From a virus: a stretch of 32,828 bases of DNA. The DNA lies in the UHGV virus genome UHGV-0144137; one strand, given 5' to 3'. Shown piece after piece: positions 3,535 to 32,828 of the stretch (position 1 is the first letter of the stretch; the number at the start of each line of letters is the position of its first letter). Under the pieces are notes generated by a model that was not told where the DNA came from, did not search any database, and saw only the letters and a program-made list of their open reading frames with translations. Both the position numbers and the translations under genes were made by a program.

Positions 3535-3609
3535 GGGTCAGTCGTATAAAGGTCATTACGGAAGGCTGTTAACCTTCTTATCGTGGTTCGAGTCCACGCT
3601 GTCCCGCCA
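3535..3609 (+). tRNA. tRNA-like gene, anticodon GTT (Asn) by manual folding
   Basis: Manual cloverleaf: acceptor GGGTCAG/CTGTCCC (one T-T mismatch at 4-69), D-loop with GG, anticodon stem GAAGG/CCTTC with loop CTGTTAA, T-arm CGTGG-TTCGAGT-CCACG, discriminator G, encoded CCA. The mismatch leaves pseudogene status open. Confidence 0.55.
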
Positions 3610-3614
3610 AATAT

Positions 3615-3690
3615 GCTGGTTTAGCTCCAATGGTAGAGCAGTCGCCTTGTAAGCGAATGGGTAGCGGTTCAAGTCCGTTAACCAGCACCA
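3615..3690 (+). tRNA. tRNA gene, anticodon TGT (Thr) by manual folding
   Basis: 76 nt cloverleaf: fully paired acceptor GCTGGTT/AACCAGC, D-arm TAGCTC...GGTAGAGC, anticodon loop CTTGTAA, T-arm AGCGG-TTCAAGT-CCGTT, discriminator A, encoded CCA. Confidence 0.7.
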
Positions 3691-23866: not shown

Positions 23867-25945
23867 ATGACAGACATTACAGCCAATGTTGTAGTGAGTA
23901 TGCCTTCGCAACTCTTCACTATGGCTCGTTCTTTTAAAGCCGTAGCCAATGGCAAAATTTATATCGGTAAAATTGACACTGACCCGGTAAATCCTGAAAA
24001 CCAGATTCAGGTCTATGTTGAGAACGAAGATGGTTCTCACGTTCCTGTTTCTCAACCAATCATCATTAACGCTGCTGGTTACCCTGTATATAACGGACAG
24101 ATTGCCAAGTTCGTAACTGTGCAAGGCCATTCTATGGCGGTTTATGATGCGTATGGTGCGCAGCAGTTTTATTTTCCTAATGTGCTGAAGTATGACCCTG
24201 ATCAGTTTCAGAAGAGGTTGGCATCCTTTGATGATGGTGATGGGGATGAATTAGTGTCGGTGAAACAACCATTCCCCGGAGCAGCAAATCAAACTCAACA
24301 CCAAAAGAACCAACAAATCATTGATGTTCTTGACTTCGGTGCTCATCCATCGAATGCTGACAATAAAGTAGCTCTGCAATTTGCGCTAGATGCAATATAT
24401 AGCATTGGAGGAGGTACACTACAGTTTTCACTACCAGGCATATATACTTTGCTTTCTGAGTTGCAAATAAAATCAAATACTCACCTAAAGATGACTGATG
24501 GCGTAACCATTAAACGTAATTTTTCTAATGACGTCATGCTGAGAATAAGCCCTAATACTGGCACTAACATTAAAATAACAGGCGGAATACTAGATGGAGG
24601 AGGACAAGACCACCCTACAGATCCTTTTGACATCATTGCAGCCTCCTCACCAAGAAATCTTTCTATTGTTGGAGTAACATTTCTTGATGTAGTCGATTTT
24701 CATGCTGTAGATATTGCTGACGGGCAAGGGGTGATTATAAGAGACTGTAAGTTTCTTGGCTTCAAACCACTTTCCAACCGAAATTATTCAGAAGCGATCC
24801 AGTTAGATCCGGGGATTGAATCTCTTGGCGATTATTACCCAAACATCAATGTTCTTGTTGATAACTGTTATTTTGGTTCAAATCCACAAAATACCACCAC
24901 TGGGTTTGGGGCGTGGGGGGTGGGGGTTGGGAACCATGCTAATTCATATGGGAATCAGGACAAAAATATAAGGGTCATAAACTGCAGGTTCGATGGAATG
25001 CTCTTTGCCGGGGTAAGGGTTTTCAACTGGTATGATTGGGTGGTTAGCGGATGCTCTTTCTATAACAGTACCGCGCGAGGAGTTCATGTAACCCCATTCC
25101 CATCATCATCAAAACCACAGGGGGCAAGGAGGGGGCGCATTGTTGGCAATTATTTTGAAGGCGTTAGATCCCCGATTCTTCTGGCTGCACCTACATATCC
25201 ATATACAGATACATCAGATGCATTTCATGAAGATATCGTAATATCCAACAATTCCATGTTTATTACAGAGTCTCAATCATATGCAGTAGACGCAAGATGG
25301 GTTTCAGGACTAACTGTCACTGGAAACACAGCAAGAGGCGGAATCGGTTTTTTCAAAGGTGATTTTATTAACAAATCAATCATCTCTAATAATGAATACG
25401 ATTCAGGAACATCAAGTTCTTTATGGATTTCTGAAACTAATGCAGAAGAATTTATAGGGTCTGGTTTTTCGCATGATGTTGTAATTTCTAGCAACATCTT
25501 TAGAAATATTTCCCTGCATGGGATTCATATTAATGGTAAATATTCAAATGTTACTATTCAATCAAACATTATAGTTGGGGTTTCTACCGCAGATAATAAC
25601 CATAATGGCATACGAATTGACTCTGGTGCAGAAAATGTAATTGTTAGTTCAAATCAAATTCGTGATGGCGTTGCAAATAATAAACCATCAGTTGGTATAT
25701 TTGCTACATCAAGCTGTAAGAGCGTGTCATTTATAGGGAATGTTTCATTTGGAACATCAGCCACACAGAATAATCAAGCTACAGATAAAAGCTCACTTGT
25801 GATATTTGGGCAAGAAGGCAACCCAACATCTAGCGGAGTTGGAGCACCAGTTGGTTCTATTTACACTCGTTCTGATGGAGGTGGAAATACAGTACTTTAT
25901 ATAAAGGAAAGCAACACAAATGCTACAGGTTGGGTTAATAAGTAA
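23867..25945 (+). CDS. Tailspike protein: P22-type head-binding domain plus divergent beta-helix receptor-binding domain
   Basis: 692 aa; the first ~115 aa ([34 protein letters not shown]...NVLKYDPDQ) match the P22 gp9 head-binding domain; the remainder is a Gly/Asn/Ser-rich beta-helix-like sequence on AT-rich DNA. Confidence 0.9.
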
Positions 25946-26472
25946 AACCAGCATTTAAATACAATATATATCATAAAACTTACATAATAGTTATAACTAT
26001 AATTCTTGCTTAAGAATTTATAAAAACTGAGACACACAAAGCTTTGCACTTGATTGCAAGGCGTTGTGCTCTTCGATAGTGGTTAAGGTGGATCACTCCA
26101 CCTTTTCATCAAGCCAGTCCGCCCACCACTGCATCATTTCTCTGCGCTTATCGAGATACTGAGCATGGTTGTAAATTCAGCTAACCCAATGCGTTGACAA
26201 AAAATTAGCGCAAGAGGACAAAAAATCACCTTGCGCTAATGCTCTGTTGTAGGTCACTAATGCCATCTAAGTAGTTGATTCATAGTGACTGCATATGTTG
26301 TGTTTTGTCGCATTTTGCAGTCTGTTATTTAACCGTAAATACTTATAAACATATGATTTTTAAATAATTTATATGATTTTGTCATCCTTTAGGTGAAAAA
26401 GAACGCTGGAGTACCAGCGGTGATGTTCACGAAATTAAAAATCTTCCTGTAATCCTCTATAGCAAACAGGCG

Positions 26473-26901
26473 TTGATGACGTCGGCAAAGGACGGCCTGT
26501 TGAAGAAGAATGTATCAGGGGTGAAGAGTTCCAAGCATGGCTGCTTTGTTTATGGCGATACCTCGTTTTCTTTCAGTGAGGTAATGGAAGCTATCTTCAT
26601 CAGTGGGCTGTTCTTCTATGCGCCAATAGACGCCGCCAGTAGTCTTGATGAACTGAAAGTGAGTTTGGCTGGGCTGGAAGAAGAACTGGCCGAAGTACCA
26701 AAAGTGGATTCGAATGGCAATGAAACAGATAAAGAACCTACTATAGTCGTAGCCGAAGGTGCTTTTGATTCGGTCGCTGCTCACATGGAAACAGAAGCTG
26801 AGGAGTGGCAATCTATTAAGAACCTGTGCCAACGAGAAGGTGAGCTGCCCATACGTATTGGTGGTATTAAAATGGCTGAGCCACCAGAGTTTCATTTTTA
26901 G
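26473..26901 (+). CDS. hypothetical acidic protein (first gene of two-gene accessory operon)
   Basis: 142 aa ORF 52 nt upstream of the 393 aa ORF, same strand; acidic C-terminal half; no recognisable motif; true start uncertain. Confidence 0.45.
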   Translation: MMTSAKDGLLKKNVSGVKSSKHGCFVYGDTSFSFSEVMEAIFISGLFFYAPIDAASSLDELKVSLAGLEEELAEVPKVDSNGNETDKEPTIVVAEGAFDSVAAHMETEAEEWQSIKNLCQREGELPIRIGGIKMAEPPEFHF

Positions 26902-26961
26902 TTTAAAAGCAACAATCTACCACTTAATGATTACGAAGCTATAAGTTGAAGGATGATTCAC

Positions 26962-28134
26962 ATGCCACACAAGAAAGTAGCATTACAGCTCATTGAAGAA
27001 ACACTTAAAGAACTCGAGTCACCAAAAGGTTCTTTGTTATCGGCTATACAAAAACTACAGCGGACTTCGGATATCATCAATGATGATGATAAAAAGATAT
27101 GGTGTGCTATTCAATTAGGTGATACTAAATATACAAAGCCAATAACTGAATTGCTTAAGTTTGTTATTGAGGCTGAAAATACAAAAAATAAATCTTTCCA
27201 AGAAAATTTAGACAAACGAATACAAGAACTTGCCAAATTAGGAGTTAAGGCTAATATACATTATTCAGATGAAGAACTCACATTAAAAAATATTGAAAGT
27301 GGTGGTGGATATAATAACATTGGGTTTATTGAAGAGAAATATGCCGATCTTGTAAGAAAAAAACAAGGCAATGACGGAACGTATTATAAGAATAGTTTAA
27401 ATCAACATATCAATTATGTTAGAAAAAAAGCACATGAATTAGCATCGCAAATATATAATCAACTAAAATTTTCAGGTACTGTCAGCAACTGTTTTGATGT
27501 ATTGAAAAATGCTGTTGATGATAAATTATTAGATCTAAATCCAGTGATCGCAGAACAACTAATGTTGGCATTTAAAGCTATTTCTTCAGATAAAGAAGAA
27601 GAATGGTCTCAAGCTTTAACTACATGTCGTAGGCTTCTAGAAGGGTTGGCTGATGAACTTTATCCGGCATCGAAGGAAAAATTTAATGGTCGGGCCGTTG
27701 GGCAAGGTCAATACGTAAACCGCCTTTGGGCATTTATGGATGGGGCTATTCAGTCTGATAGTAATAAAGACCTTGCCAAAGCACATATAGATTTTCTCGG
27801 ATCATGGTTAGATAAAGTTAATAAGTTAACAAATAAAGGTGTTCATGCCGAGTTAGATCGGATTGAAGCTGTAAAGTCAGTATTTCACACGTATTTAGTA
27901 GTGGCGGATTTGCTTGAGTATATGTCAAATACCAAAACCTCTGTATCTAAGCCTGATATCAATAAAGCTACTTTAGATGAACTGGAAGCATTGTTAAATA
28001 TAAATAGAACAATCGCTAAAGAAATTGTTAAAGCACGAGTTCGTGAAGGCAAGCTTGATCTGGATATTTTAAAAAACATAAAAGGTATAGGTGCTAAGAC
28101 GCTTAGTAATATACAAGAAGTGTTTGTTATGTAA
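26962..28134 (+). CDS. hypothetical alpha-helical protein with C-terminal ComEA-type helix-hairpin-helix DNA-binding domain
   Basis: Track ORF 26953..28134, start set to ATG 26962 (GAAGGA Shine-Dalgarno 9 nt upstream); C-terminus INKATLDELEALLNINRTIAKEIVKARVREGKLDLDILKNIKGIGAKTLSNI fits the ComEA HhH pattern; AT-rich codon usage. Confidence 0.6.
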   Translation: MPHKKVALQLIEETLKELESPKGSLLSAIQKLQRTSDIINDDDKKIWCAIQLGDTKYTKPITELLKFVIEAENTKNKSFQENLDKRIQELAKLGVKANIHYSDEELTLKNIESGGGYNNIGFIEEKYADLVRKKQGNDGTYYKNSLNQHINYVRKKAHELASQIYNQLKFSGTVSNCFDVLKNAVDDKLLDLNPVIAEQLMLAFKAISSDKEEEWSQALTTCRRLLEGLADELYPASKEKFNGRAVGQGQYVNRLWAFMDGAIQSDSNKDLAKAHIDFLGSWLDKVNKLTNKGVHAELDRIEAVKSVFHTYLVVADLLEYMSNTKTSVSKPDINKATLDELEALLNINRTIAKEIVKARVREGKLDLDILKNIKGIGAKTLSNIQEVFVM

Positions 28135-28170
28135 TTTATTTAGTATTTAATTGATATAATATCATGAAAT

Positions 28171-28206
28171 AAAATCGGGAGTTCATACGTAGCAACTCCC
28201 GATTTT
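28171..28206. terminator. Bidirectional terminator-like hairpin between convergent genes
   Basis: Perfect 10 bp stem ATCGGGAGTT / AACTCCCGAT flanked by AAAA and TTTT. Confidence 0.55.
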
Positions 28207-28225
28207 ACGATGATATGTTGTATTA

Positions 28226-28592
28226 TCAATCCATCAAACCACGTGAGGTCTTACTTGCAGTCTGACGAAAATCATAACGTTCCACAACATCACCCTTAAA
28301 CCAGATATCCAGTGATTTAATGTGTGCTGTGCTGCTATTGGTCAATAGAGCAAGGCCCGGTATGTAGTTAGATAGTTGGCTTTCTCCCGTCATACTTGAG
28401 TAGTTCCACATCTCCTGTCCATCATTCGTAGCGCTCTCCAAAGGCAGCAAGAATTTCTTGTTGGGTTGTTTTTCCCTTGACGATTTTAACTTTAACCGTC
28501 TGATGATTTTCATCAGTTAGGGATTTATTACCATGAACGGTACAGCCACCAAGTGGTAATATTATAAAAATAGCAAGTAATAATTTTTTCAT
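28226..28592 (-). pseudogene. Lipoprotein gene apparently split by a frameshift
   Basis: Two overlapping minus-strand ORFs (28422..28634 and 28226..28513) in different frames; the upstream one carries signal peptide and lipobox MKKLLLAIFIILPLGGC (ATG at 28592), the downstream one lacks its own signal; overlap region contains a homopolymer run. Confidence 0.4.
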
Positions 28593-28623
28593 TTTTGTTC
28601 CAGAAATAGATGAAAGGTGAGAC

Positions 28624-29112
28624 TCAGAAAACATACTTTTTAAATACCAGCATCCATCGCTTGCAAAGTTCGTGATTTGAGGTGCTTAAATTTTTCAGGG
28701 GAACATTAACTTTCCACATGGGATTTTTAATATCATCGGTTAAAATATTTAGGCCAGACCGTTTATTCGCTGAAAGTTGTTCTCTACAGTTAGCAATAGC
28801 CGCATTATTCATACCTCGTAATGTTCCATTGCCATAAAACTTACCCCCCTCTGAAAGCGTATAATTTATTTCTCGAATTTGATCAAAAGTATATGTGCTG
28901 TCTTTATCTTTATTGAAAATACGGACAGTATGTTTTTGAGTATCAATAACAATACCTGTCTGTTGGCATTCATACGAAAGAATGTCGCCGTCCAGAACTT
29001 CCGTAAAGCTGTTGTAGTGCTTTTTCTTTTGTATATCTACTGCTGTCATGATGATGATGAAGAGCACCACTAAAAATACGATACCTACTGCTTCCAATCT
29101 TACTTCCTCCAT
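28624..29112 (-). CDS. hypothetical membrane-anchored protein
   Basis: 162 aa; N-terminal TM helix (AVGIVFLVVLFIIIMTAV) then soluble domain; AT-rich; divergent from the lipoprotein operon across the GATC-rich region. Confidence 0.55.
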   Translation of the reverse strand: MEEVRLEAVGIVFLVVLFIIIMTAVDIQKKKHYNSFTEVLDGDILSYECQQTGIVIDTQKHTVRIFNKDKDSTYTFDQIREINYTLSEGGKFYGNGTLRGMNNAAIANCREQLSANKRSGLNILTDDIKNPMWKVNVPLKNLSTSNHELCKRWMLVFKKYVF

Positions 29113-29224
29113 GTAAATGAGTTAAAGAGACTGAACCTGCTCACAGAGCTTTGCTACGTTTTATACGTCCTACAGCACCAAGCTCATGGCGTCGGTCTCG
29201 GCGTTGCAAGGCTATCAGAACTTG

Positions 29225-29375
29225 AAATCATGATCGATATAAAAGATCGATAATTAATTATTGATAGGCTTTAACGATTAAAACAATGATATTGATCGAT
29301 TATTAATTGTTTTTATCGATCGAATATTTATTTATGATAGCTATTGGCTATCATAAGGTTGTTTTTGATCGTTTT
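29225..29375. promoter_or_regulatory. Divergent intergenic control region with clustered GATCGAT repeats and a 10 bp inverted repeat
   Basis: GATC at 29232, 29245, 29294, 29318 and 29367; the 7-mer GATCGAT occurs three times direct and once inverted; imperfect 22 bp direct repeat GATCGATwATTAATTrTT (29245-29266 and 29294-29315); inverted repeat TTATGATAGC-N5-GCTATCATAA at 29332-29356. Confidence 0.5.
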
Positions 29376-29529
29376 AAACGATATGACGAGACGCTAAAAG
29401 AATTGAATCCTATCAATTGGTTAAGCGGTGGTTTTGCCATGTGATATCAGCCGGATCCCGCAACAACTCTAGCCCTGACCAGATTTGGTCAAAAATTTAG
29501 GCACTTTGATTATCAGGATGGATAAGCAG

Positions 29530-30060
29530 ATGAAGAAGATTTTACTCGTTGCTGGCGCAGCTCTGGCACTGGCGGGATGTGGTGAGAAAGGTGATTTTGA
29601 GAAGGCGATCAATGCCAAGATAGGGCAGGACAAATATTGCTTCTCGCTGGATAACAATAACACCAGCTTCCCCATCCGTCTTGCCAAGCCACGACTTGAT
29701 TCGACTGGTACAGGGACGAATTCAGTGATCCTCGATGGATTTGTAGAGCAGGGAATGATGGTCTTTGAGCAGGGCTATGATTCGAACGTATTAGGGATAA
29801 CAGAGGAAGGCAAAAAAGCCAAAGTCTGGAGCACAACAGATGGTGCCTGTGTTGGTCGTCGTGCTGTTGACGGGATTAAGGAATGGACTGAGCCGGGAAA
29901 CGGTAATCAGAAAGTAGTTCGCGTGACTTATACGTGGAAGCTGGTTGACGTTCCGGGCTGGATTGACAAAAAAGCATTCGCCAGCGTTAAAGGAATGAAT
30001 GAACCTGCTGATGGTGCCATGAATCTCTTTAAGACCAGCAATGGCTGGAAAGCCAATTAA
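29530..30060 (+). CDS. Predicted lipoprotein
   Basis: Track ORF 29485..30060 trimmed to ATG 29530 (MKKILLVAGAALALAGCGEKG...): signal peptide with lipobox LAGC. Confidence 0.7.
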   Translation: MKKILLVAGAALALAGCGEKGDFEKAINAKIGQDKYCFSLDNNNTSFPIRLAKPRLDSTGTGTNSVILDGFVEQGMMVFEQGYDSNVLGITEEGKKAKVWSTTDGACVGRRAVDGIKEWTEPGNGNQKVVRVTYTWKLVDVPGWIDKKAFASVKGMNEPADGAMNLFKTSNGWKAN

Positions 30061-30070
30061 GGAAACCAAT

Positions 30071-30346
30071 ATGGAAAACAATACCATCAAATGCCCGTTC
30101 TGTTTCAAAGAGAGCCAGCGTGGGGTTCACGTTTGCACAGGTTGCTTAGCGACTGTGTTATATGGCACTTATCCCGGCTGGTATGCTGCTGTTGTTTTGT
30201 TGTTGACTTTTGGTTTATCGACGTTGATCGGTATGTCAACAGGTATGGCAGGAGCTACTATCAGTCTACCAATAATTGCGGTTGTTGGGTTTATAGCTGG
30301 TAAGGCGATATTCTCTGATAATGTTGTGTTTAGGCGAAAGATATAA
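30071..30346 (+). CDS. small membrane protein with N-terminal zinc-ribbon (CPFC...CTGC)
   Basis: Track ORF 30041..30346 trimmed to ATG 30071 (AAGGAAACC Shine-Dalgarno); CxxC-x15-CxxC then two hydrophobic helices; 10 nt downstream of the lipoprotein gene. Confidence 0.6.
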   Translation: MENNTIKCPFCFKESQRGVHVCTGCLATVLYGTYPGWYAAVVLLLTFGLSTLIGMSTGMAGATISLPIIAVVGFIAGKAIFSDNVVFRRKI

Positions 30347-30405
30347 AAAACGAAAAGAATTATATGATGGGCGACCTTTCATAGTTCGCCCATATATAAA
30401 TATAA

Positions 30406-31242
30406 CTAAAGACCATTTCTCGCTGATTTTATATCCAATAAGTTTATTTTATCTATCTTATCTTTGTGGATAACGATAGTAAGCTTTGCCGGAAATTTAA
30501 ACCTCATTTCACTTATTCTAAAAGTCCACAACATTATTTTAAGTAAATCCTCATCGCTAATATTTTTATGTTCCTTTATTCTAGTGATTCCAGATCCAAA
30601 GATAGGAACAGAGACACTTTTTTGAGCATATATACGATTAACTTTGTCCCAAAAATTTATTAAAAATGCTAGATAATCCGGCATTGTAAGAAAAGCTCTA
30701 TTTTTGTCGTCAAATTTTGAAAACGCAGTTAATAGATAATCATTATTAACGAAGATAGTTCCTAGCGAATATTTTTGTGTTTTACCCACTTTTCTTTTAT
30801 GGTTGACCTCAAGCAGTTCATCTTCTTCAAACTGATGATTTGAAATACGATGGTCCAAATCAGATACGGATCCCGCTAAATAGTTATCAATATATAATCC
30901 ATTAAGTGAATTATGAGAAATGATAACATCATCAACTTGCGTGTCAAAATATTCATTAAAAGCAATGACCTTGAATCCATCTTGTCTGAATAAATCGCCT
31001 GCTTTTACAGTAACAATGCTGCCCTCAACATCTAAATTAATTTCCGAAAGATTATTTGATTTAAACCATATGCCGAAATACAGTAAGAATAAAATAATTA
31101 AAAATATAATACCAAGTGTTAGTTTGTTTTCTGTTGGAATGTCTACAAAAATCAAAAAAAGTGAAAATATGGTACTAATAGTTGATGTGTAGTCTGAAAA
31201 TTTTTTAAGTATACGCTTATCGAAAAAATTAACTTTCGCCAT
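30406..31242 (-). CDS. Two-TM membrane protein with C-terminal Macro-like domain (ThsA type II-like effector candidate)
   Basis: 278 aa; two N-terminal hydrophobic helices (TISTIFSLFLIFV, LGIIFLIILFLLYFGIWF); downstream motifs DDVIISHNSLNG and SVPIFGSGITR resemble Macro-domain ADP-ribose-binding motifs (by eye); about 30% GC. Confidence 0.55.
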   Translation of the reverse strand: MAKVNFFDKRILKKFSDYTSTISTIFSLFLIFVDIPTENKLTLGIIFLIILFLLYFGIWFKSNNLSEINLDVEGSIVTVKAGDLFRQDGFKVIAFNEYFDTQVDDVIISHNSLNGLYIDNYLAGSVSDLDHRISNHQFEEDELLEVNHKRKVGKTQKYSLGTIFVNNDYLLTAFSKFDDKNRAFLTMPDYLAFLINFWDKVNRIYAQKSVSVPIFGSGITRIKEHKNISDEDLLKIMLWTFRISEMRFKFPAKLTIVIHKDKIDKINLLDIKSARNGL

Positions 31243-31378
31243 TTTTGTACCAACCTTGTTAATTATATGTAATTCAAGTGTGTTGATAGTAGTTTCTTAT
31301 AAATGATGTTTACACTATCTGATATATAAGGTATTTTCAACATGTTGATACTAATGTTGACTGCTTCATGGGGACTAT

Positions 31379-31888
31379 ATGAGTTATCGTAATAAGACAT
31401 ATGTGGCTTTTGCAAGTGAAGATATAAAGTTTTATCGTCTTATGGAGGCATGGAAAGCAAATGAAAAAATAGACTTTAACTTTTTTGATGCTCATGATCT
31501 CTTTATTTCAAGGGATACAAGTAAACCTGAAACCATAAAGCGAAACCTCCGCGAAAGGATGAAAAATGCTAAACAAGTAGTACTGTTGGGAAGCGGTAAT
31601 ACTAAGAGAAAAGGTAGCGATGGAGTATCGTTTCTTGCCCATGAAATAGATCTTATCGTAGAATTTAATCTTCCTGTTGTAATAGCTAATTTAGACGGAG
31701 ATAGAACAGTCGATAAGAACTTCATTCCTAAACCACTTTTAGATTCAGAACATTATACAGTATCTGTCTCTTTCCAACCTAAAATTATTAAATATGCATT
31801 AGATAATTACTGTGTTAACTATTACTCAAGTTCAAATAGTGGTAGTTATCTATACCCTACATCTGTTTATACTAAGCTAGGTCTGTAA
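31379..31888 (+). CDS. TIR-like (DUF1863 / ThsB-like) protein candidate
   Basis: 169 aa; N-terminus KTYVAFASEDIKFYRLMEAW and later VVLLGSGNT...AHEIDL fit the pattern of TIR-like ThsB proteins as I recall it; divergent from the TM-Macro gene. Confidence 0.5.
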   Translation: MSYRNKTYVAFASEDIKFYRLMEAWKANEKIDFNFFDAHDLFISRDTSKPETIKRNLRERMKNAKQVVLLGSGNTKRKGSDGVSFLAHEIDLIVEFNLPVVIANLDGDRTVDKNFIPKPLLDSEHYTVSVSFQPKIIKYALDNYCVNYYSSSNSGSYLYPTSVYTKLGL

Positions 31889-31914
31889 TATTTCAACGTA
31901 TACTAAACAATATG

Positions 31915-31941
31915 TGGAATGAGCACGGAACACTCATTCCA
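31915..31941. terminator. Hairpin between convergent genes
   Basis: 9 bp stem TGGAATGAG / CTCATTCCA with 9 nt loop, in an AT-rich intergenic region. Confidence 0.4.
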
Positions 31942-32019
31942 TAACAAACATACTATTTAGATGTGCTAATACAATTAATTTTATGCATCGAAGATATTAA
32001 GCACTTATGATTTATTGCT

Positions 32020-32828
32020 TTATCTTCTCCTGTATGCTATTTCAGCCAACTCTCTTGCTATTTCCTTAACGCTATATAAAGAAGTTTGCAGTGCCATTTT
32101 ATCCGCCAAATAATGGCTGTATTTAGATACCTCTTGAGCATTGATATTATGCCAGATTGGCAATATAATCTTATTATCATCATACACTGCACGATTAATT
32201 AAACTATCTAATTCGTATTGTGTCCATTTCTTGTTTAGAAAGTTATGAGAAAGTATGACTATGCCATAATTTGCTTTTCTTAGGCCTAAATCAATATTTC
32301 TCCTTAAGCTATCGCCGACTTCAAGTGTCTGTTCATCATACCAAATAATTACACCAAGTCTATTTAACTCGTCTACCAGTGGTCTGACAAAAGTATCTTT
32401 ATCCTCTTTTGCATGGGATATGAAAAAATCATAGTGCGTATTATTGTTATCTTGCATGACGTCATTCTGTATTTCATATGGTTGATGAAAAATTGCTTGT
32501 AATTTTGCCCAGTCTATTTCTGCTAAAGATTTATTATTGCGATAAAATAGTTTTTGGGAAGGGAAATCAATATTCGAAATGTAAATAATAAATATATTAT
32601 TTATTTTCTTTGCCTCAACCTCCTTCCACTCCCATCTATAATCGTGGATATAAGAAATTGATGCTTGAAAATAATCATTGGAAGTTAAATTACCTGCGCG
32701 AAATGTCGCATTACTAATATTAAACGCGAGATATGAGTTACCTTCTCCGTTGAAAATAATATTATATCCCTCTTTCAATAGATATGAACGAATCTCTTTG
32801 GTTTTTAGGTGCTGTTTCCATGCGAGGA
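32020..32828 (-). CDS. TIR-domain protein (N-terminus beyond window edge)
   Basis: Canonical TIR motifs YDFFISHAKEDKDTFVRPLVDEL...WYDE...IVILSHNFLNKKWTQYEL in the C-terminal half; the reading frame stays open upstream of the TTG at 32778 to the end of the window, so the gene is probably truncated by the window. Confidence 0.75.
   Translation of the reverse strand, partial: LAWKQHLKTKEIRSYLLKEGYNIIFNGEGNSYLAFNISNATFRAGNLTSNDYFQASISYIHDYRWEWKEVEAKKINNIFIIYISNIDFPSQKLFYRNNKSLAEIDWAKLQAIFHQPYEIQNDVMQDNNNTHYDFFISHAKEDKDTFVRPLVDELNRLGVIIWYDEQTLEVGDSLRRNIDLGLRKANYGIVILSHNFLNKKWTQYELDSLINRAVYDDNKIILPIWHNINAQEVSKYSHYLADKMALQTSLYSVKEIARELAEIAYRRR

What the first reader, a model, noticed from the sequence alone, without database searches (positions are those of the whole stretch)
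28226..30346. Divergent membrane/lipoprotein operons flanking the GATC-rich region, including a zinc-ribbon membrane protein
On the plus strand a lipoprotein (29530-30060) is followed 10 nt later by a small protein with an N-terminal CxxC...CxxC zinc ribbon and two TM helices. On the minus strand a TM-anchored protein is followed by a lipoprotein that appears frameshifted. Small envelope proteins in an accessory region next to a phage tail module are candidates for surface modification or receptor masking (superinfection exclusion).
Basis: inference. Interest (0 to 1): 0.42.

Follow-up and report, generated by a model that had tools for sequence, protein, structure and literature searches.

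The report
Island envelope genes behind epigenetic switch
The four small envelope genes are real, but they belong to a mobilizable pathogenicity island (the E. coli tcpC/serU island, a relative of Salmonella ROD21) and not to the neighbouring phage, and the GATC-rich DNA between them looks like an undescribed OxyR/Dam on-off switch for the lipoprotein and zinc-ribbon membrane protein pair.

Summary
**Observation: confirmed.**
- Plus strand: a lipoprotein (29530-30060, lipobox LAGC), then 10 nt later a 91-aa protein with CxxC-X10-CxxC and two TM helices (30071-30346).
- Minus strand: a signal-anchored DUF4755 protein (28624-29112), then a lipoprotein inactivated by an 11-bp deletion (28226-28592).

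Window 26391-32828 is 99.9% identical to the E. coli 536 tcpC/serU island, a ROD21-like (EARL) mobilizable island. The genes correspond to SEN1984, SEN1983, SEN1982 and SEN1981A. The phage tail module is simply juxtaposed.

**What is conserved.** Only the right-hand pair recurs across Enterobacterales elements. The zinc-ribbon protein is 77-99% identical, with dN/dS 0.03-0.06. The left-hand genes vary and decay.

**The intergenic element.** It is about 200 bp long and was found in 26 distinct versions.
- Four GATCs are kept in 25-26 of the 26 versions.
- It holds two tandem 73-bp units, each with three OxyR-like half-sites 31 bp apart.
- Unit 2 scores 8/9/8 of 10. The experimentally proven P22 gtr switch scores 8/10/8 under the same scoring.

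**Conclusion.** I infer Dam/OxyR phase-variable expression of an envelope cassette. Its biochemical function is unknown. Receptor masking is possible but untested.

The parts
28226..28592 (-). Pseudogene of a SEN1984-family lipoprotein. The signal peptide and Cys17 are intact. The reading frame is broken by an 11-bp deletion at about 28434/28435.
   Evidence: alignment with the intact gene of E. coli M23314; the intact 125-aa translation. RefSeq 'frameshifted', 'SEN1984 family lipoprotein'; phrog_3135, E 1.7e-33; 31-38% identical homologues in 6 lambdoid phages. PMC10655114 reports a BamE-like fold by Phyre2. Pfam SmpA_OmlA was not matched here.
28624..29112 (-). DUF4755 (SEN1983-family) protein with an N-terminal membrane anchor. 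The probable start is TTG at 29097, giving 157 aa.
   Evidence: Pfam PF15947, E 4e-14, 53 bits against a cut-off of 27; a single hydrophobic segment at residues 4-22, and GGAGGA upstream of the TTG. RefSeq start. The orthologue is a pseudogene in Salmonella ROD21 (PMC3198454).
29226..29425 (+). Conserved cis-regulatory element, oriented towards the lipoprotein operon. It consists of two tandem 73-bp units of OxyR-like half-sites interleaved with conserved GATC (Dam) sites.
   Evidence: the core motif AAACGATATGACG is present in 26 of 36 loci, always upstream of the cassette; there are 26 distinct versions with median identity 69%; GATC 29245 is kept in 25/26, 29294, 29318 and 29367 in 26/26, and 29232 in 20/26; three of the four best matches to the full OxyR consensus in the whole 32.8-kb window lie here, including the top one at 16/20. 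A true agn43 OxyR site scores 14/20 under the same scoring.
29233..29247 (.). Half-site A1' (ATCGATATAAAAGAT, 7/10). It is bracketed by GATC 29232 and 29245, which are 13 bp apart like GATC1/2 of P22 gtr.
   Evidence: mean 6.9/10 over 26 elements. and PMC2909390: in gtr, half-site A lies between two GATC 13 bp apart.
29264..29278 (.). Half-site B1 (ATAGGCTTTAACGAT, 8/10), with no GATC.
   Evidence: mean 8.9, minimum 8, maximum 10. Background frequency of 8 or more is 6.7e-4 per position.
29295..29309 (.). Half-site C1' (ATCGATTATTAATTG, 5/10, weak), adjoining GATC 29294.
   Evidence: mean 5.0, which is not better than the null. It is the weakest element of the model.
29306..29320 (.). Half-site A2' (ATTGTTTTTATCGAT, 8/10), overlapping GATC 29318.
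   Evidence: mean 7.8, minimum 7. It lies 31 bp upstream of B2, centre to centre.
29337..29351 (.). Half-site B2 (ATAGCTATTGGCTAT, 9/10), inside the inverted repeat TTATGATAGC-N5-GCTATCATAA. It has no GATC.
   Evidence: mean 9.5, minimum 8. ATAG and CTAT are invariant while the N positions vary freely. In E. coli M23314 it reads ATAGATAAAAACTAT, identical to half-site B of P22 gtr.
29368..29382 (.). Half-site C2' (ATCGTTTTAAACGAT, 8/10), starting inside GATC 29367. It is promoter-proximal and overlaps the candidate -35.
   Evidence: 8/10 in all 26 elements. It lies 31 bp downstream of B2. The candidate -10 is AAGAAT at 29398-29403 (AATAAT in most loci). The promoter is inferred and was not mapped.
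29530..30060 (+). SEN1982-family lipoprotein (CFT073 c2401), 176 aa. It is predicted to be outer-membrane anchored and to face the periplasm.
30071..30346 (+). SEN1981A-family inner-membrane protein, 91 aa. It has a cytoplasmic CxxC-X10-CxxC zinc ribbon followed by a two-helix hairpin.
   Evidence: 278 homologues, 77-99% identical across Enterobacterales; the four Cys are invariant; dN/dS 0.03-0.06 with saturated dS; more conserved than MobQ (58-62%) and TraD in the same loci; almost always paired with a lipoprotein, drawn from three unrelated families; it stands alone with an integrase on a 2,772-bp plasmid.

Best explanation
The locus is a conserved accessory module of ROD21-like (EARL) mobilizable genomic islands. 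Here it is the tcpC/serU island of extraintestinal E. coli. It is not a phage moron.

Its functional core is a two-gene operon:
- an outer-membrane-type periplasmic lipoprotein (SEN1982 family);
- a small inner-membrane protein (SEN1981A family) whose N-terminal zinc ribbon faces the cytoplasm.

Upstream lies a roughly 200-bp element built like the gtr/opvAB epigenetic switches. A strong, GATC-free OxyR half-site (B) is flanked at 31 bp on each side by weaker half-sites that carry Dam sites (A and C). The whole unit is duplicated in tandem, 73 bp apart.

Inferred mechanism:
1. An OxyR tetramer (or a LysR-type regulator of the same specificity) can occupy A+B or B+C.
2. The pair it occupies is shielded from Dam. 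The other GATC becomes methylated and then excludes the protein, so each state is inherited.
3. Occupancy of B2+C2' covers the promoter -35, giving the OFF state. Occupancy of A2'+B2 leaves it free or activates it, giving the ON state.
4. The result is a mixed population in which only some cells make the two envelope proteins. This suits a costly surface or envelope modifier used for bet-hedging against phages, host defences or incoming DNA.

The leftward DUF4755/SEN1984 genes are exchangeable cargo. In this strain they are half dead.

Shown: gene anatomy, island identity, conservation, purifying selection, and the half-site/GATC architecture. Inferred: OxyR binding, bistability, the promoter position and the physiological role.
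For: **Island identity**
- Window 26391-32828 is 99.9% identical to E. coli 536.
- In 536 the segment lies between RepL/H-NS/DUF4756 on one side and Thoeris/MobQ/TraD/PilS/PilV/integrase on the other.
- RefSeq names the genes SEN1982 and SEN1984 family lipoproteins. ROD21 gene tables agree.

**Cassette conservation**
- The lipoprotein followed by the zinc-ribbon protein, 10-17 nt apart, occurs in most of 32 loci from about 20 genera.
- Where the SEN1982 family is absent, an unrelated 95-aa lipoprotein takes its place.
- dN/dS is 0.03-0.06 for the zinc-ribbon protein.

**The element belongs to the right-hand operon**
- It keeps its position and orientation upstream of the cassette while the divergent neighbour changes: DUF4755+SEN1984, SEN1984 alone, a PF03090 replicase, or others.
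- In other islands it is replaced by a divergent XRE-type repressor gene.

**Switch architecture**
- Four GATC are kept in 25-26 of 26 elements that are only 69% identical.
- Mean half-site scores are A1' 6.9, B1 8.9, C1' 5.0, A2' 7.8, B2 9.5 and C2' 8.0 out of 10. The null mean is 4.6-5.0, with P(>=8) 0.5-1.3%.
- Consensus positions are fixed while N positions vary.
- The validated P22 gtr switch, scored the same way, gives 8/10/8 at 32-bp spacing, with GATC in A and C only (PMC2909390).
- The 73-bp distance between the two strong sites equals the OBSA-OBSC distance of opvAB, at -148 and -75 (PMC4856963).

**Biological relevance**
- Transposon mutants in SEN1982 were attenuated for spleen and liver colonisation in mice (Silva et al. 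2012, as cited in PMC6968874 and PMC10655114).
Against: - No experiment was done. OxyR binding, differential methylation and ON/OFF heterogeneity are all untested.
- Half-site C1' is no better than background, and A1' is modest.
- Spacing is 31 bp, not 32. Most flanking half-sites carry one GATC, not a pair.
- The promoter is only a weak consensus match and the standard scan did not pick it up.
- ATAG-N7-CTAT also fits the generic LysR T-N11-A motif, so the binding protein could be another regulator.
- GATC density alone is not statistically unusual.
- No function could be assigned to either protein:
  - no Pfam, NCBIfam, PADLOC or PHROG family above threshold;
  - no PDB relative by sequence;
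  - only a generic cystatin/NTF2-like fold similarity for the lipoprotein.
- Plasmid-borne distant homologues of the cassette lack the element.
Confidence: 0.5

Rival explanations
1. The GATC/ATCGAT-rich element is a replication origin, iteron array or partition site of the excised island, bound by a Rep protein, SeqA or IHF. On this view the envelope genes merely lie beside it and are expressed from an ordinary promoter.
For: - GATC clusters, AT-richness and repeated motifs are typical of origins.
- In the small integrated elements (L017 type) the element lies directly upstream of a PF03090 replicase gene.
- EARL islands carry a RepL-like gene.
- TATCAATTGGTTA at 29411-29423 fits the IHF consensus WATCAANNNNTTR (read directly from the sequence; the consensus is quoted from my own knowledge).
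Against: - The element keeps a fixed position and orientation relative to the lipoprotein/zinc-ribbon operon. Meanwhile the rep gene is of a different family, lies 4-5 kb away, or is absent.
- In some islands it is replaced by a divergent XRE-type regulator gene, as expected for a regulatory region.
- The conserved positions follow the OxyR half-site consensus, with variable N positions.
- Deleting the RepL-like SEN1990 did not change replication or maintenance of excised ROD21 (PMC10655114).
Confidence: 0.12
2. One reading: the proteins mask or modify a surface receptor and act as superinfection exclusion. They would be carried by, or serve, the adjacent phage.
For: - Envelope localisation.
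- The SEN1984 family occurs in lambdoid phages (phrog_3135).
- Known OxyR/Dam-switched loci gtr and opvAB alter the O-antigen and confer phage resistance (PMC2909390, PMC4856963).
- The cassette lies between two variable defence-gene slots: Thoeris here, and DUF3800 or TIR-TPR elsewhere.
Against: - It is not part of the prophage. Island homology starts at 26391, and the same phage end borders ybhB-bioA in another strain.
- The DNA has no match in phage genomes.
- The 'viral' contigs are islands.
- Similarity to Cor is confined to the signal peptide. There are no PADLOC hits.
- The zinc-ribbon protein is 77-99% identical from E. coli to Photorhabdus and Brenneria. That fits a conserved intracellular or inner-membrane partner better than a variable outer-membrane phage receptor.
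Confidence: 0.15
3. The pair is an entry or surface exclusion system, analogous to TraT/TraS of F or TrbK of RP4. It would stop cells that already carry the island from receiving another copy, or a competing element, by conjugation.
For: - An outer-membrane lipoprotein paired with a small inner-membrane protein recalls TraT/TraS (my own knowledge).
- The cassette sits in the backbone of mobilizable islands near MobQ/TraD/PilS/PilV, and in small elements next to NikA/relaxase genes.
Against: - No sequence or family similarity to any exclusion protein.
- The islands lack their own type IV secretion system (PMC6035254), so there is no cognate donor component for specific exclusion.
- Distant homologues occur on plasmids typed as non-mobilizable, and on a 2.8-kb plasmid that carries only an integrase.
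Confidence: 0.08
4. The zinc-ribbon hairpin is a membrane-active toxin, holin-like protein or abortive-infection effector, or an addiction factor. Expression must therefore be kept off in most cells, and the lipoprotein modulates or neutralises it.
For: - Size and N-in/C-in two-TM topology with a basic C-terminus resemble class II holins and small membrane toxins (my own knowledge).
- The operon is under elaborate or repressive control in every context: the switch, or an XRE repressor.
- The protein can be the only cargo of a 2,772-bp plasmid.
- It is next to Thoeris, whose ThsA also has TM helices.
Against: - No similarity to any known toxin, holin or defence family.
- Very strong purifying selection on the cytoplasmic zinc ribbon suggests a specific partner, not plain membrane damage.
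- It is not adjacent to ThsA in most loci.
Confidence: 0.1

Closest known systems
gtr operon switch of phage P22 and Salmonella (OxyR/Dam phase variation; Broadbent et al. 2010, PMC2909390)
   Same: - Three OxyR half-sites at about one-and-three helical-turn spacing.
- The central site is GATC-free and near-perfect. In one E. coli variant it is ATAGATAAAAACTAT, identical to the P22 site.
- The flanking sites have the form (G)ATCGnTnnnAnCGAT(C) and carry the Dam targets.
- The proximal site abuts the promoter.
- One flanking site (A1') has the same pair of GATC 13 bp apart.
- Scores under identical scoring are 8/9/8 here and 8/10/8 for P22.
- It is carried on a mobile element and controls envelope proteins.
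   Different: - Spacing is 31 bp, not 32.
- Most flanking sites carry one GATC, not two.
- The unit is duplicated in tandem, 73 bp apart.
- The controlled genes are a lipoprotein and a zinc-ribbon membrane protein, not GtrABC glycosyltransferases.
- Nothing has been tested experimentally.
opvAB (STM2209-STM2208) switch of Salmonella enterica (Cota et al. 2012 and 2016; PMC3350482, PMC4856963)
   Same: - Several OxyR half-sites interleaved with four GATC upstream of a two-gene operon for small membrane proteins of horizontal origin.
- Two consensus-grade half-sites lie 73 bp apart, each partnered with weaker GATC-bearing sites.
- The proximal site lies immediately upstream of the -35.
   Different: - opvAB has four half-sites with 32/41/32 spacing. 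This element has six, with 31/31/11/31/31 spacing.
- OpvA and OpvB are inner-membrane proteins that shorten the O-antigen. No sequence similarity to them was searched for or seen in the family scans.
agn43 (flu) OxyR/Dam switch of E. coli
   Same: - GATC sites are embedded in ATCGAT-type OxyR contacts.
- The K-12 site TTATCGATCGTTTATATCGATCGATAAG resembles the motifs here.
- It scores 14/20 against the full consensus, against 16/20 for the best site here.
   Different: agn43 has a single repressor site covering three GATC downstream of the promoter. It has no alternative pairs of half-sites.
ROD21 genes SEN1981A, SEN1982, SEN1983 and SEN1984 of Salmonella Enteritidis; CFT073 c2401
   Same: - These are orthologues. 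The lipoprotein is 96% identical.
- Gene order and island family are the same.
- SEN1982 mutants are attenuated in mice.
   Different: - In ROD21 the DUF4755 gene is the pseudogene. Here it is the SEN1984 gene.
- The published annotations give no function. One suggests a PadR-like DNA-binding motif in SEN1982, which is implausible for an exported lipoprotein (in one search the winged-helix hits cover only 32-57 columns).
Phage and plasmid exclusion lipoproteins (Cor, Llp, TraT)
   Same: Small outer-membrane lipoproteins encoded by mobile elements.
   Different: No homology beyond the signal peptide. The fold is a cystatin/NTF2-like alpha+beta roll with no significant structural neighbour.

Membership tests
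gtr/opvAB-type OxyR-Dam phase-variation switch | Three or more OxyR half-sites (ATAGnTnnnAnCTAT) spaced so that alternative adjacent pairs can be bound (about 32 bp centre to centre) | tested here: met
   A2'/B2/C2' score 8/9/8 and A1'/B1/C1' score 7/8/5 at 31-bp spacing, conserved in 26 elements. P22 gtr scores 8/10/8 at 32 bp under the same scoring. C1' is weak.
gtr/opvAB-type OxyR-Dam phase-variation switch | GATC sites inside or abutting the alternative half-sites but not the shared one | tested here: met
   GATC lie at A1' (two), C1', A2' and C2', and none in B1 or B2. Four are kept in 25-26 of 26 elements.
gtr/opvAB-type OxyR-Dam phase-variation switch | The promoter is overlapped by the proximal half-site | tested here: inconclusive
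   There are only weak consensus candidates: a -35 overlapping C2' and a -10 AAGAAT/AATAAT at 29398-29403, or TATCAA at 29411. The standard scan did not report them. The transcription start site is unknown.
gtr/opvAB-type OxyR-Dam phase-variation switch | OxyR binding is blocked by methylation, and the ON and OFF lineages show opposite methylation patterns | not testable with these tools
   This needs EMSA or footprinting, and methylation-sensitive sequencing.
gtr/opvAB-type OxyR-Dam phase-variation switch | Heritable ON/OFF expression that depends on dam and oxyR | not testable with these tools
   This needs reporter fusions in wild-type, dam and oxyR backgrounds.
Bacterial lipoprotein (Lgt/LspA substrate) | Signal peptide ending in a lipobox [LVI][ASTVI][GAS]C | tested here: met
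   LAGC at residues 14-17 of the 176-aa protein. Pfam LPAM_1, 23 bits against a cut-off of 20. The pseudogene has LGGC here and LSGC in the intact allele.
SEN1982 family lipoprotein (NCBI annotation name) | Full-length similarity to S. Enteritidis SEN1982 | tested here: met
   96% identity over 100% of the length. RefSeq gives this name to the identical protein WP_000722536.1. The NCBIfam copy at hand (June 2026) holds no such model.
Pfam DUF4755 | Score above the gathering threshold | tested here: met
   53.1 bits against 27.
BamE / SmpA_OmlA lipoproteins | Match to the SmpA_OmlA family, or a BamE fold | tested here: inconclusive
   No Pfam match at E <= 0.01 for the intact SEN1984 homologue, and no PDB sequence match. 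PMC10655114 reports 99.7% Phyre2 confidence for a BamE fold.
Zinc ribbon | Two CxxC knuckles about 10-20 residues apart, conserved | tested here: met
   C8, C11, C22 and C25 are invariant in 20 sequences of 77-90% identity. Pfam DZR_2 reaches only 13.6 bits against a cut-off of 27, so the match is at motif level, not family level. Metal binding was not tested.
EARL / ROD21-like excisable island | Integrase and RDF at a tRNA gene, MobQ relaxase, TraD, PilS/PilV, H-NS paralogue | tested here: met
   all are present around the identical segment in E. coli 536; the same backbone occurs in most related loci. The window itself holds only the part from 26391 onwards.
Phage superinfection-exclusion lipoproteins (Cor family, phrog_1119) | Similarity over the mature protein | tested here: not met
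   the hits cover residues 1-19 or 1-44 only (the signal peptide), at E 0.006-0.02.
Known anti-phage defence proteins (PADLOC) | Match to a PADLOC model | tested here: not met
   no hit for any of the four proteins. The neighbouring ThsA, ThsB and TcpC hit strongly.

The most novel reading that the evidence does not exclude
A previously undescribed, tandem gtr/opvAB-like OxyR-Dam epigenetic switch is a backbone feature of ROD21-like pathogenicity islands and of related small integrative elements across Enterobacterales. It would drive bistable expression of a two-protein, envelope-spanning cassette: an outer-membrane lipoprotein and a zinc-ribbon inner-membrane hairpin. That cassette would be a new kind of phase-variable protection or exclusion device, acting against phage, incoming DNA or host defences. 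This would explain why SEN1982 mutants are attenuated and why the zinc-ribbon protein is the most conserved protein of these islands.
Probability: 0.25. Interest if true: 0.65.

Novelty: new member of a known kind. Interest (0 to 1): 0.5.

Why it matters
- **The island matters clinically.** The tcpC/serU island and ROD21 are studied virulence islands of uropathogenic E. coli and Salmonella Enteritidis. Their lipoprotein SEN1982 scored in a mouse colonisation screen, yet these genes have no assigned function or described regulation.
- **A new OxyR/Dam switch would be a real addition.** Such a switch would add a widespread locus to a very short list (agn43, gtr, opvAB). The cassette matched 604 of 5,426 complete E. 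coli genomes and occurs in about 20 genera.
- **It bears on published results.** Island gene expression would be heterogeneous within clonal populations. That affects how RT-qPCR and RNA-seq comparisons of ROD21 mutants should be read.
- **It gives a handle on function.** The proteins could be studied with locked-ON and locked-OFF alleles.
- **It is directly testable.** Public long-read methylation data already exist for strains that carry the island.

Tried and rejected
- **Family scans.** Pfam, NCBIfam, PADLOC and PHROGs gave only DUF4755, lipobox motifs and phrog_3135 for the four proteins.
- **PDB sequence searches.** The zinc-ribbon profile, the intact SEN1984 homologue and DUF4755 returned nothing usable.
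- **First structure model.** AlphaFold2 with a shallow alignment gave pLDDT 55 and was discarded. A deeper alignment gave pLDDT 89.5.
- **Context of distant lipoprotein homologues.** Their genomic neighbourhoods, including that of the FHA-TM fusions, were heterogeneous and gave no functional clue.
- **GATC density.** It is not significant as a statistic on its own.
- **First register for the half-sites.** A 22-bp spacing (oxidised-OxyR consensus) gave weak flanking sites of 4-5/10. I replaced it with the 31-bp register, which fits reduced OxyR and the gtr/opvAB literature.
- **Origin-of-replication reading.** I considered this and ranked it lower (see rivals).
- **Leftward promoter.** I looked for one under the control of unit 1. 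There was no convincing candidate, and the left flank is not conserved.
- **Literature.** No paper in the searchable library links these genes, or the SEN1982-SEN1983 spacer, to Dam or OxyR.
- **Viral contig scan.** The hits are islands classed as viral.

Full report
**1. What is in the sequence**

- **Lipoprotein, plus strand, 29530-30060.** It encodes a 176-aa protein that starts MKKILLVAGAALALAG|CGEKG. The lipobox is LAGC and Gly follows the lipidated Cys. By the E. coli Lol-sorting rule this predicts an outer-membrane lipoprotein. Two further Cys (37 and 107) are conserved in the family.
- **Zinc-ribbon protein, plus strand, 30071-30346.** It starts 10 nt after the lipoprotein stop, behind an AAGGAAA ribosome-binding site. 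The 91-aa protein has C8-x2-C11 ... C22-x2-C25 and two hydrophobic helices at 39-57 and 63-81. Basic residues lie at both ends and the connecting loop is uncharged, so both termini and the zinc ribbon should be cytoplasmic.
- **DUF4755 protein, minus strand, 28624-29112.** Pfam gives 53 bits against a cut-off of 27. It has one N-terminal anchor. The RefSeq start, TTG at 29097 behind GGAGGA, is more convincing than the upstream ATG.
- **Broken lipoprotein, minus strand, 28226-28592.** Alignment with an intact allele shows an 11-bp deletion.

**2. Where it comes from**

- Window 26391-32828 is 99.9% identical to E. coli 536.
- In 536 the segment lies inside the tRNA-linked tcpC/serU island. The gene order is: DUF6387, HTH, H-NS paralogue, DUF4756, RepL..., ComEA-like, [the four genes], ThsA-Macro, ThsB-TIR, TcpC, MobQ, TraD, PilS, PilV, integrase.
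- This is the architecture of ROD21 of Salmonella Enteritidis and of the EARL island family (PMC6035254).
- RefSeq now names two of the genes 'SEN1982 family' and 'SEN1984 family' lipoproteins. The ROD21 gene table lists SEN1981A membrane protein, SEN1982 lipoprotein (CFT073 c2401, 96%), SEN1983 (a pseudogene there) and SEN1984.
- The DNA matched 604 of 5,426 complete E. coli genomes, always on the chromosome. It matched no phage genome.
- Window 1-26390 is a P22-like prophage. The same phage end borders ybhB-bioA in another strain. No complete E. coli genome has the junction seen here.
- So the phage tail module is a neighbour by juxtaposition, not the owner of these genes.

**3. What is conserved and what is not**

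I fetched 32 loci from about 20 genera using the zinc-ribbon protein and mapped island genes onto them.

- The lipoprotein directly followed by the zinc-ribbon protein is the recurrent unit.
- Where the SEN1982 family is missing, an unrelated 95-aa lipoprotein occupies the same position. In two contigs a SEN1984-like lipoprotein follows the zinc-ribbon gene instead.
- The zinc-ribbon protein is 77-99% identical across Enterobacterales. In the same loci MobQ is 58-62% and TraD 50-60% identical.
- For the zinc-ribbon gene, synonymous sites are saturated and dN/dS is 0.03-0.06. The lipoprotein has dN/dS 0.09-0.13.
- Distant homologues (about 40% identity) sit on Klebsiella and Enterobacter plasmids of 30-45 kb, again behind a small lipoprotein. 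One sits on a 2,772-bp plasmid whose only other gene is an integrase.
- The leftward genes, by contrast, vary. They can be DUF4755+SEN1984, SEN1984 alone, DUF4755 alone, a replicase, or other genes. One or other is a pseudogene in E. coli and in ROD21.
- The two 'divergent operons' are therefore not one functional unit.

**4. The proteins**

- No curated family, defence model or solved structure matches the lipoprotein or the zinc-ribbon protein.
- An exhaustive profile search shows that the lipoprotein domain is widespread, with 405 representatives. It also occurs at the C-terminus of FHA-TM fusion proteins, which fits an extracytoplasmic location.
- With a deep alignment, AlphaFold2 gives a confident model (pLDDT 89.5).
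- The published suggestion that SEN1982 binds DNA through a PadR-like motif rests on a short helix-hairpin segment. It is implausible for an exported lipoprotein.
- The intact SEN1984 homologue belongs to phrog_3135 and has 31-38% identical relatives in six lambdoid phages.
- I could not assign a function to any of the four proteins.

**5. The intergenic element**

- *Distribution and conservation.* The spacer holds a block of about 200 bp that recurs upstream of the cassette in 26 of the 36 loci held at the time. These include small integrated elements with a different backbone. The 26 distinct versions have a median identity of 69%. GATC 29245 is kept in 25 of them, 29294, 29318 and 29367 in all 26, and 29232 in 20.
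- *OxyR-like sites.* Scanning the whole window with the OxyR consensus puts three of the four best sites in this block, and the best scores 16/20. The authentic agn43 site of K-12 scores 14/20.
- *Choosing the register.* The gtr and opvAB papers state that half-sites for reduced OxyR lie about 32 bp apart. Re-reading the block in that register gives two tandem 73-bp units.
  - Unit 1: A1' 29233 (7/10, bracketed by two GATC 13 bp apart), B1 29264 (8/10), C1' 29295 (5/10).
  - Unit 2: A2' 29306 (8/10, GATC 29318), B2 29337 (9/10), C2' 29368 (8/10, GATC 29367).
- *Scores across loci.* Over the 26 elements the means are 6.9, 8.9, 5.0, 7.8, 9.5 and 8.0. The null mean is 4.6-5.0, with P(>=8) of about 1% and P(>=9) of 0.015%. 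The ATAG, T, A and CTAT positions are fixed while the N positions drift.
- *Comparison with a proven switch.* The P22 gtr region scored the same way gives A 8, B 10, C 8 at 32-bp spacing. It has GATC pairs 13 bp apart in A and C and none in B. Its B site is identical to B2 of E. coli M23314.
- *Comparison with opvAB.* The 73-bp distance between the two strong sites equals that between OBSA and OBSC of opvAB.
- *Evidence that it is regulatory.* In some islands the block is replaced by a divergent XRE-type repressor gene with its own palindromes. This argues that it is a regulatory module and that the operon is kept under tight control.

**6. Mechanism proposed**

By analogy with gtr, I propose the following steps.

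1. OxyR, or a LysR-type protein with the same specificity, occupies either A+B or B+C.
2. Dam methylates the unprotected GATC, and the methylated site then excludes the protein.
3. Binding at B2+C2' covers the -35 region and gives the OFF state. Binding at A2'+B2 gives the ON state. Unit 1 may add cooperativity, as the four sites of opvAB do.

The weak points are these:
- C1' is at background level.
- The promoter is only a weak consensus match.
- The spacing is 31 bp, not 32.
- Nothing has been tested.

I put the switch itself at about 0.6. I put the whole statement, a switch plus a bet-hedged envelope function, at 0.5.

**7. Rivals**

- *Origin or iteron reading.* Supporting it are the GATC cluster, the adjacency to a replicase in one element type and an IHF-like site. 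Against it are the fixed linkage and orientation to the cassette, the replacement by a repressor gene, and the published finding that the RepL-like SEN1990 does not affect ROD21 replication.
- *Receptor masking, entry exclusion, or a toxin/abortive-infection role.* All remain open. None has sequence support.

**8. Novelty**

- The genes are annotated and have been mentioned in ROD21 papers, but they are uncharacterised.
- SEN1982 transposon mutants were attenuated in mice.
- I found no paper that links them, or their spacer, to Dam or OxyR.
- The switch would be a new member, with a tandem layout, of the small gtr/opvAB/agn43 class.
The regulatory element it flanks is the interesting part.

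Noticed in passing
window 30406-32828: A complete type II Thoeris-like locus lies directly downstream.
- ThsA with TM helices and a Macro domain: 30406-31242, minus strand, PADLOC E 4e-128.
- A ThsB TIR protein: 31379-31888, E 7e-91.
- TcpC: from 32020 on the minus strand, cut by the window end. It matches a PADLOC ThsB1 model at E 3e-177.

The UPEC 'TLR-subverting' virulence factor TcpC thus sits as a second ThsB of an anti-phage system.
   Followed up: partly
window 26362-26391: There is an abrupt junction between the right end of a P22-like prophage (tailspike 23867-25945) and the middle of a 320-aa island gene. The remnant ORF is 26473-26901. No complete E. coli genome of 5,426 has this junction. 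In strain 317 the same phage end borders ybhB-bioA. It is either a real rearrangement that removed the left half of the island, or an assembly chimera.
   Followed up: partly
window 3535-3690: The phage part encodes tRNA-Asn(GTT) and tRNA-Thr(TGT).
   Followed up: no
window 26953-28134: A 393-aa protein has a C-terminal ComEA-like helix-hairpin-helix domain (Pfam HHH_3, E 1.7e-9) and an uncharacterised N-terminal 330 aa. It occupies the variable cargo slot to the left of the module. Other islands carry DUF2971 or other genes there.
   Followed up: no
L012 6915-7460 (Enterobacter intestinihominis); also L047: In some islands the GATC/OxyR-like element is replaced by a divergently transcribed XRE-family HTH gene. 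The spacer then holds its own inverted repeats, CTACGAGAATCGTAG and ATACTACGTTTAACGTAGTAT. This is an alternative control module for the same lipoprotein/zinc-ribbon operon.
   Followed up: partly
L038 (plasmid pMB9544_6, 2,772 bp) 573-854: A 93-aa homologue of the zinc-ribbon membrane protein is unannotated in the record. It is the only ORF of note besides an integrase on a 2.8-kb circular Klebsiella plasmid.
   Followed up: partly
L017 6207-11288 (Serratia fonticola): This is a small integrated mobilizable element. Its order is: PF03090 replicase, the GATC/OxyR-like element, a 95-aa lipoprotein, the zinc-ribbon protein, a NikA/MobC-like protein, a relaxase and an integrase. The switch plus cassette therefore moves between unrelated backbones.
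   Followed up: partly
L047-L053 (IMG/VR contigs): Contigs filed as viral in IMG/VR carry MobQ, TraD, PilS and PilV, and are EARL-type islands, not phages.
   Followed up: yes
window 30367-30393: An inverted repeat, ATGGGCGA-N11-TCGCCCAT, lies between the convergent zinc-ribbon and thsA genes. It may be a shared terminator. The terminator scan did not flag it because no T-run follows.
   Followed up: no
PMC10655114 (literature): The only chromosomal genes reported as changed in a ROD21 SEN1990 deletion were gtrA/oafB, an OxyR/Dam phase-variable operon. Clone-to-clone phase differences could explain that result without any regulation by SEN1990.
   Followed up: no
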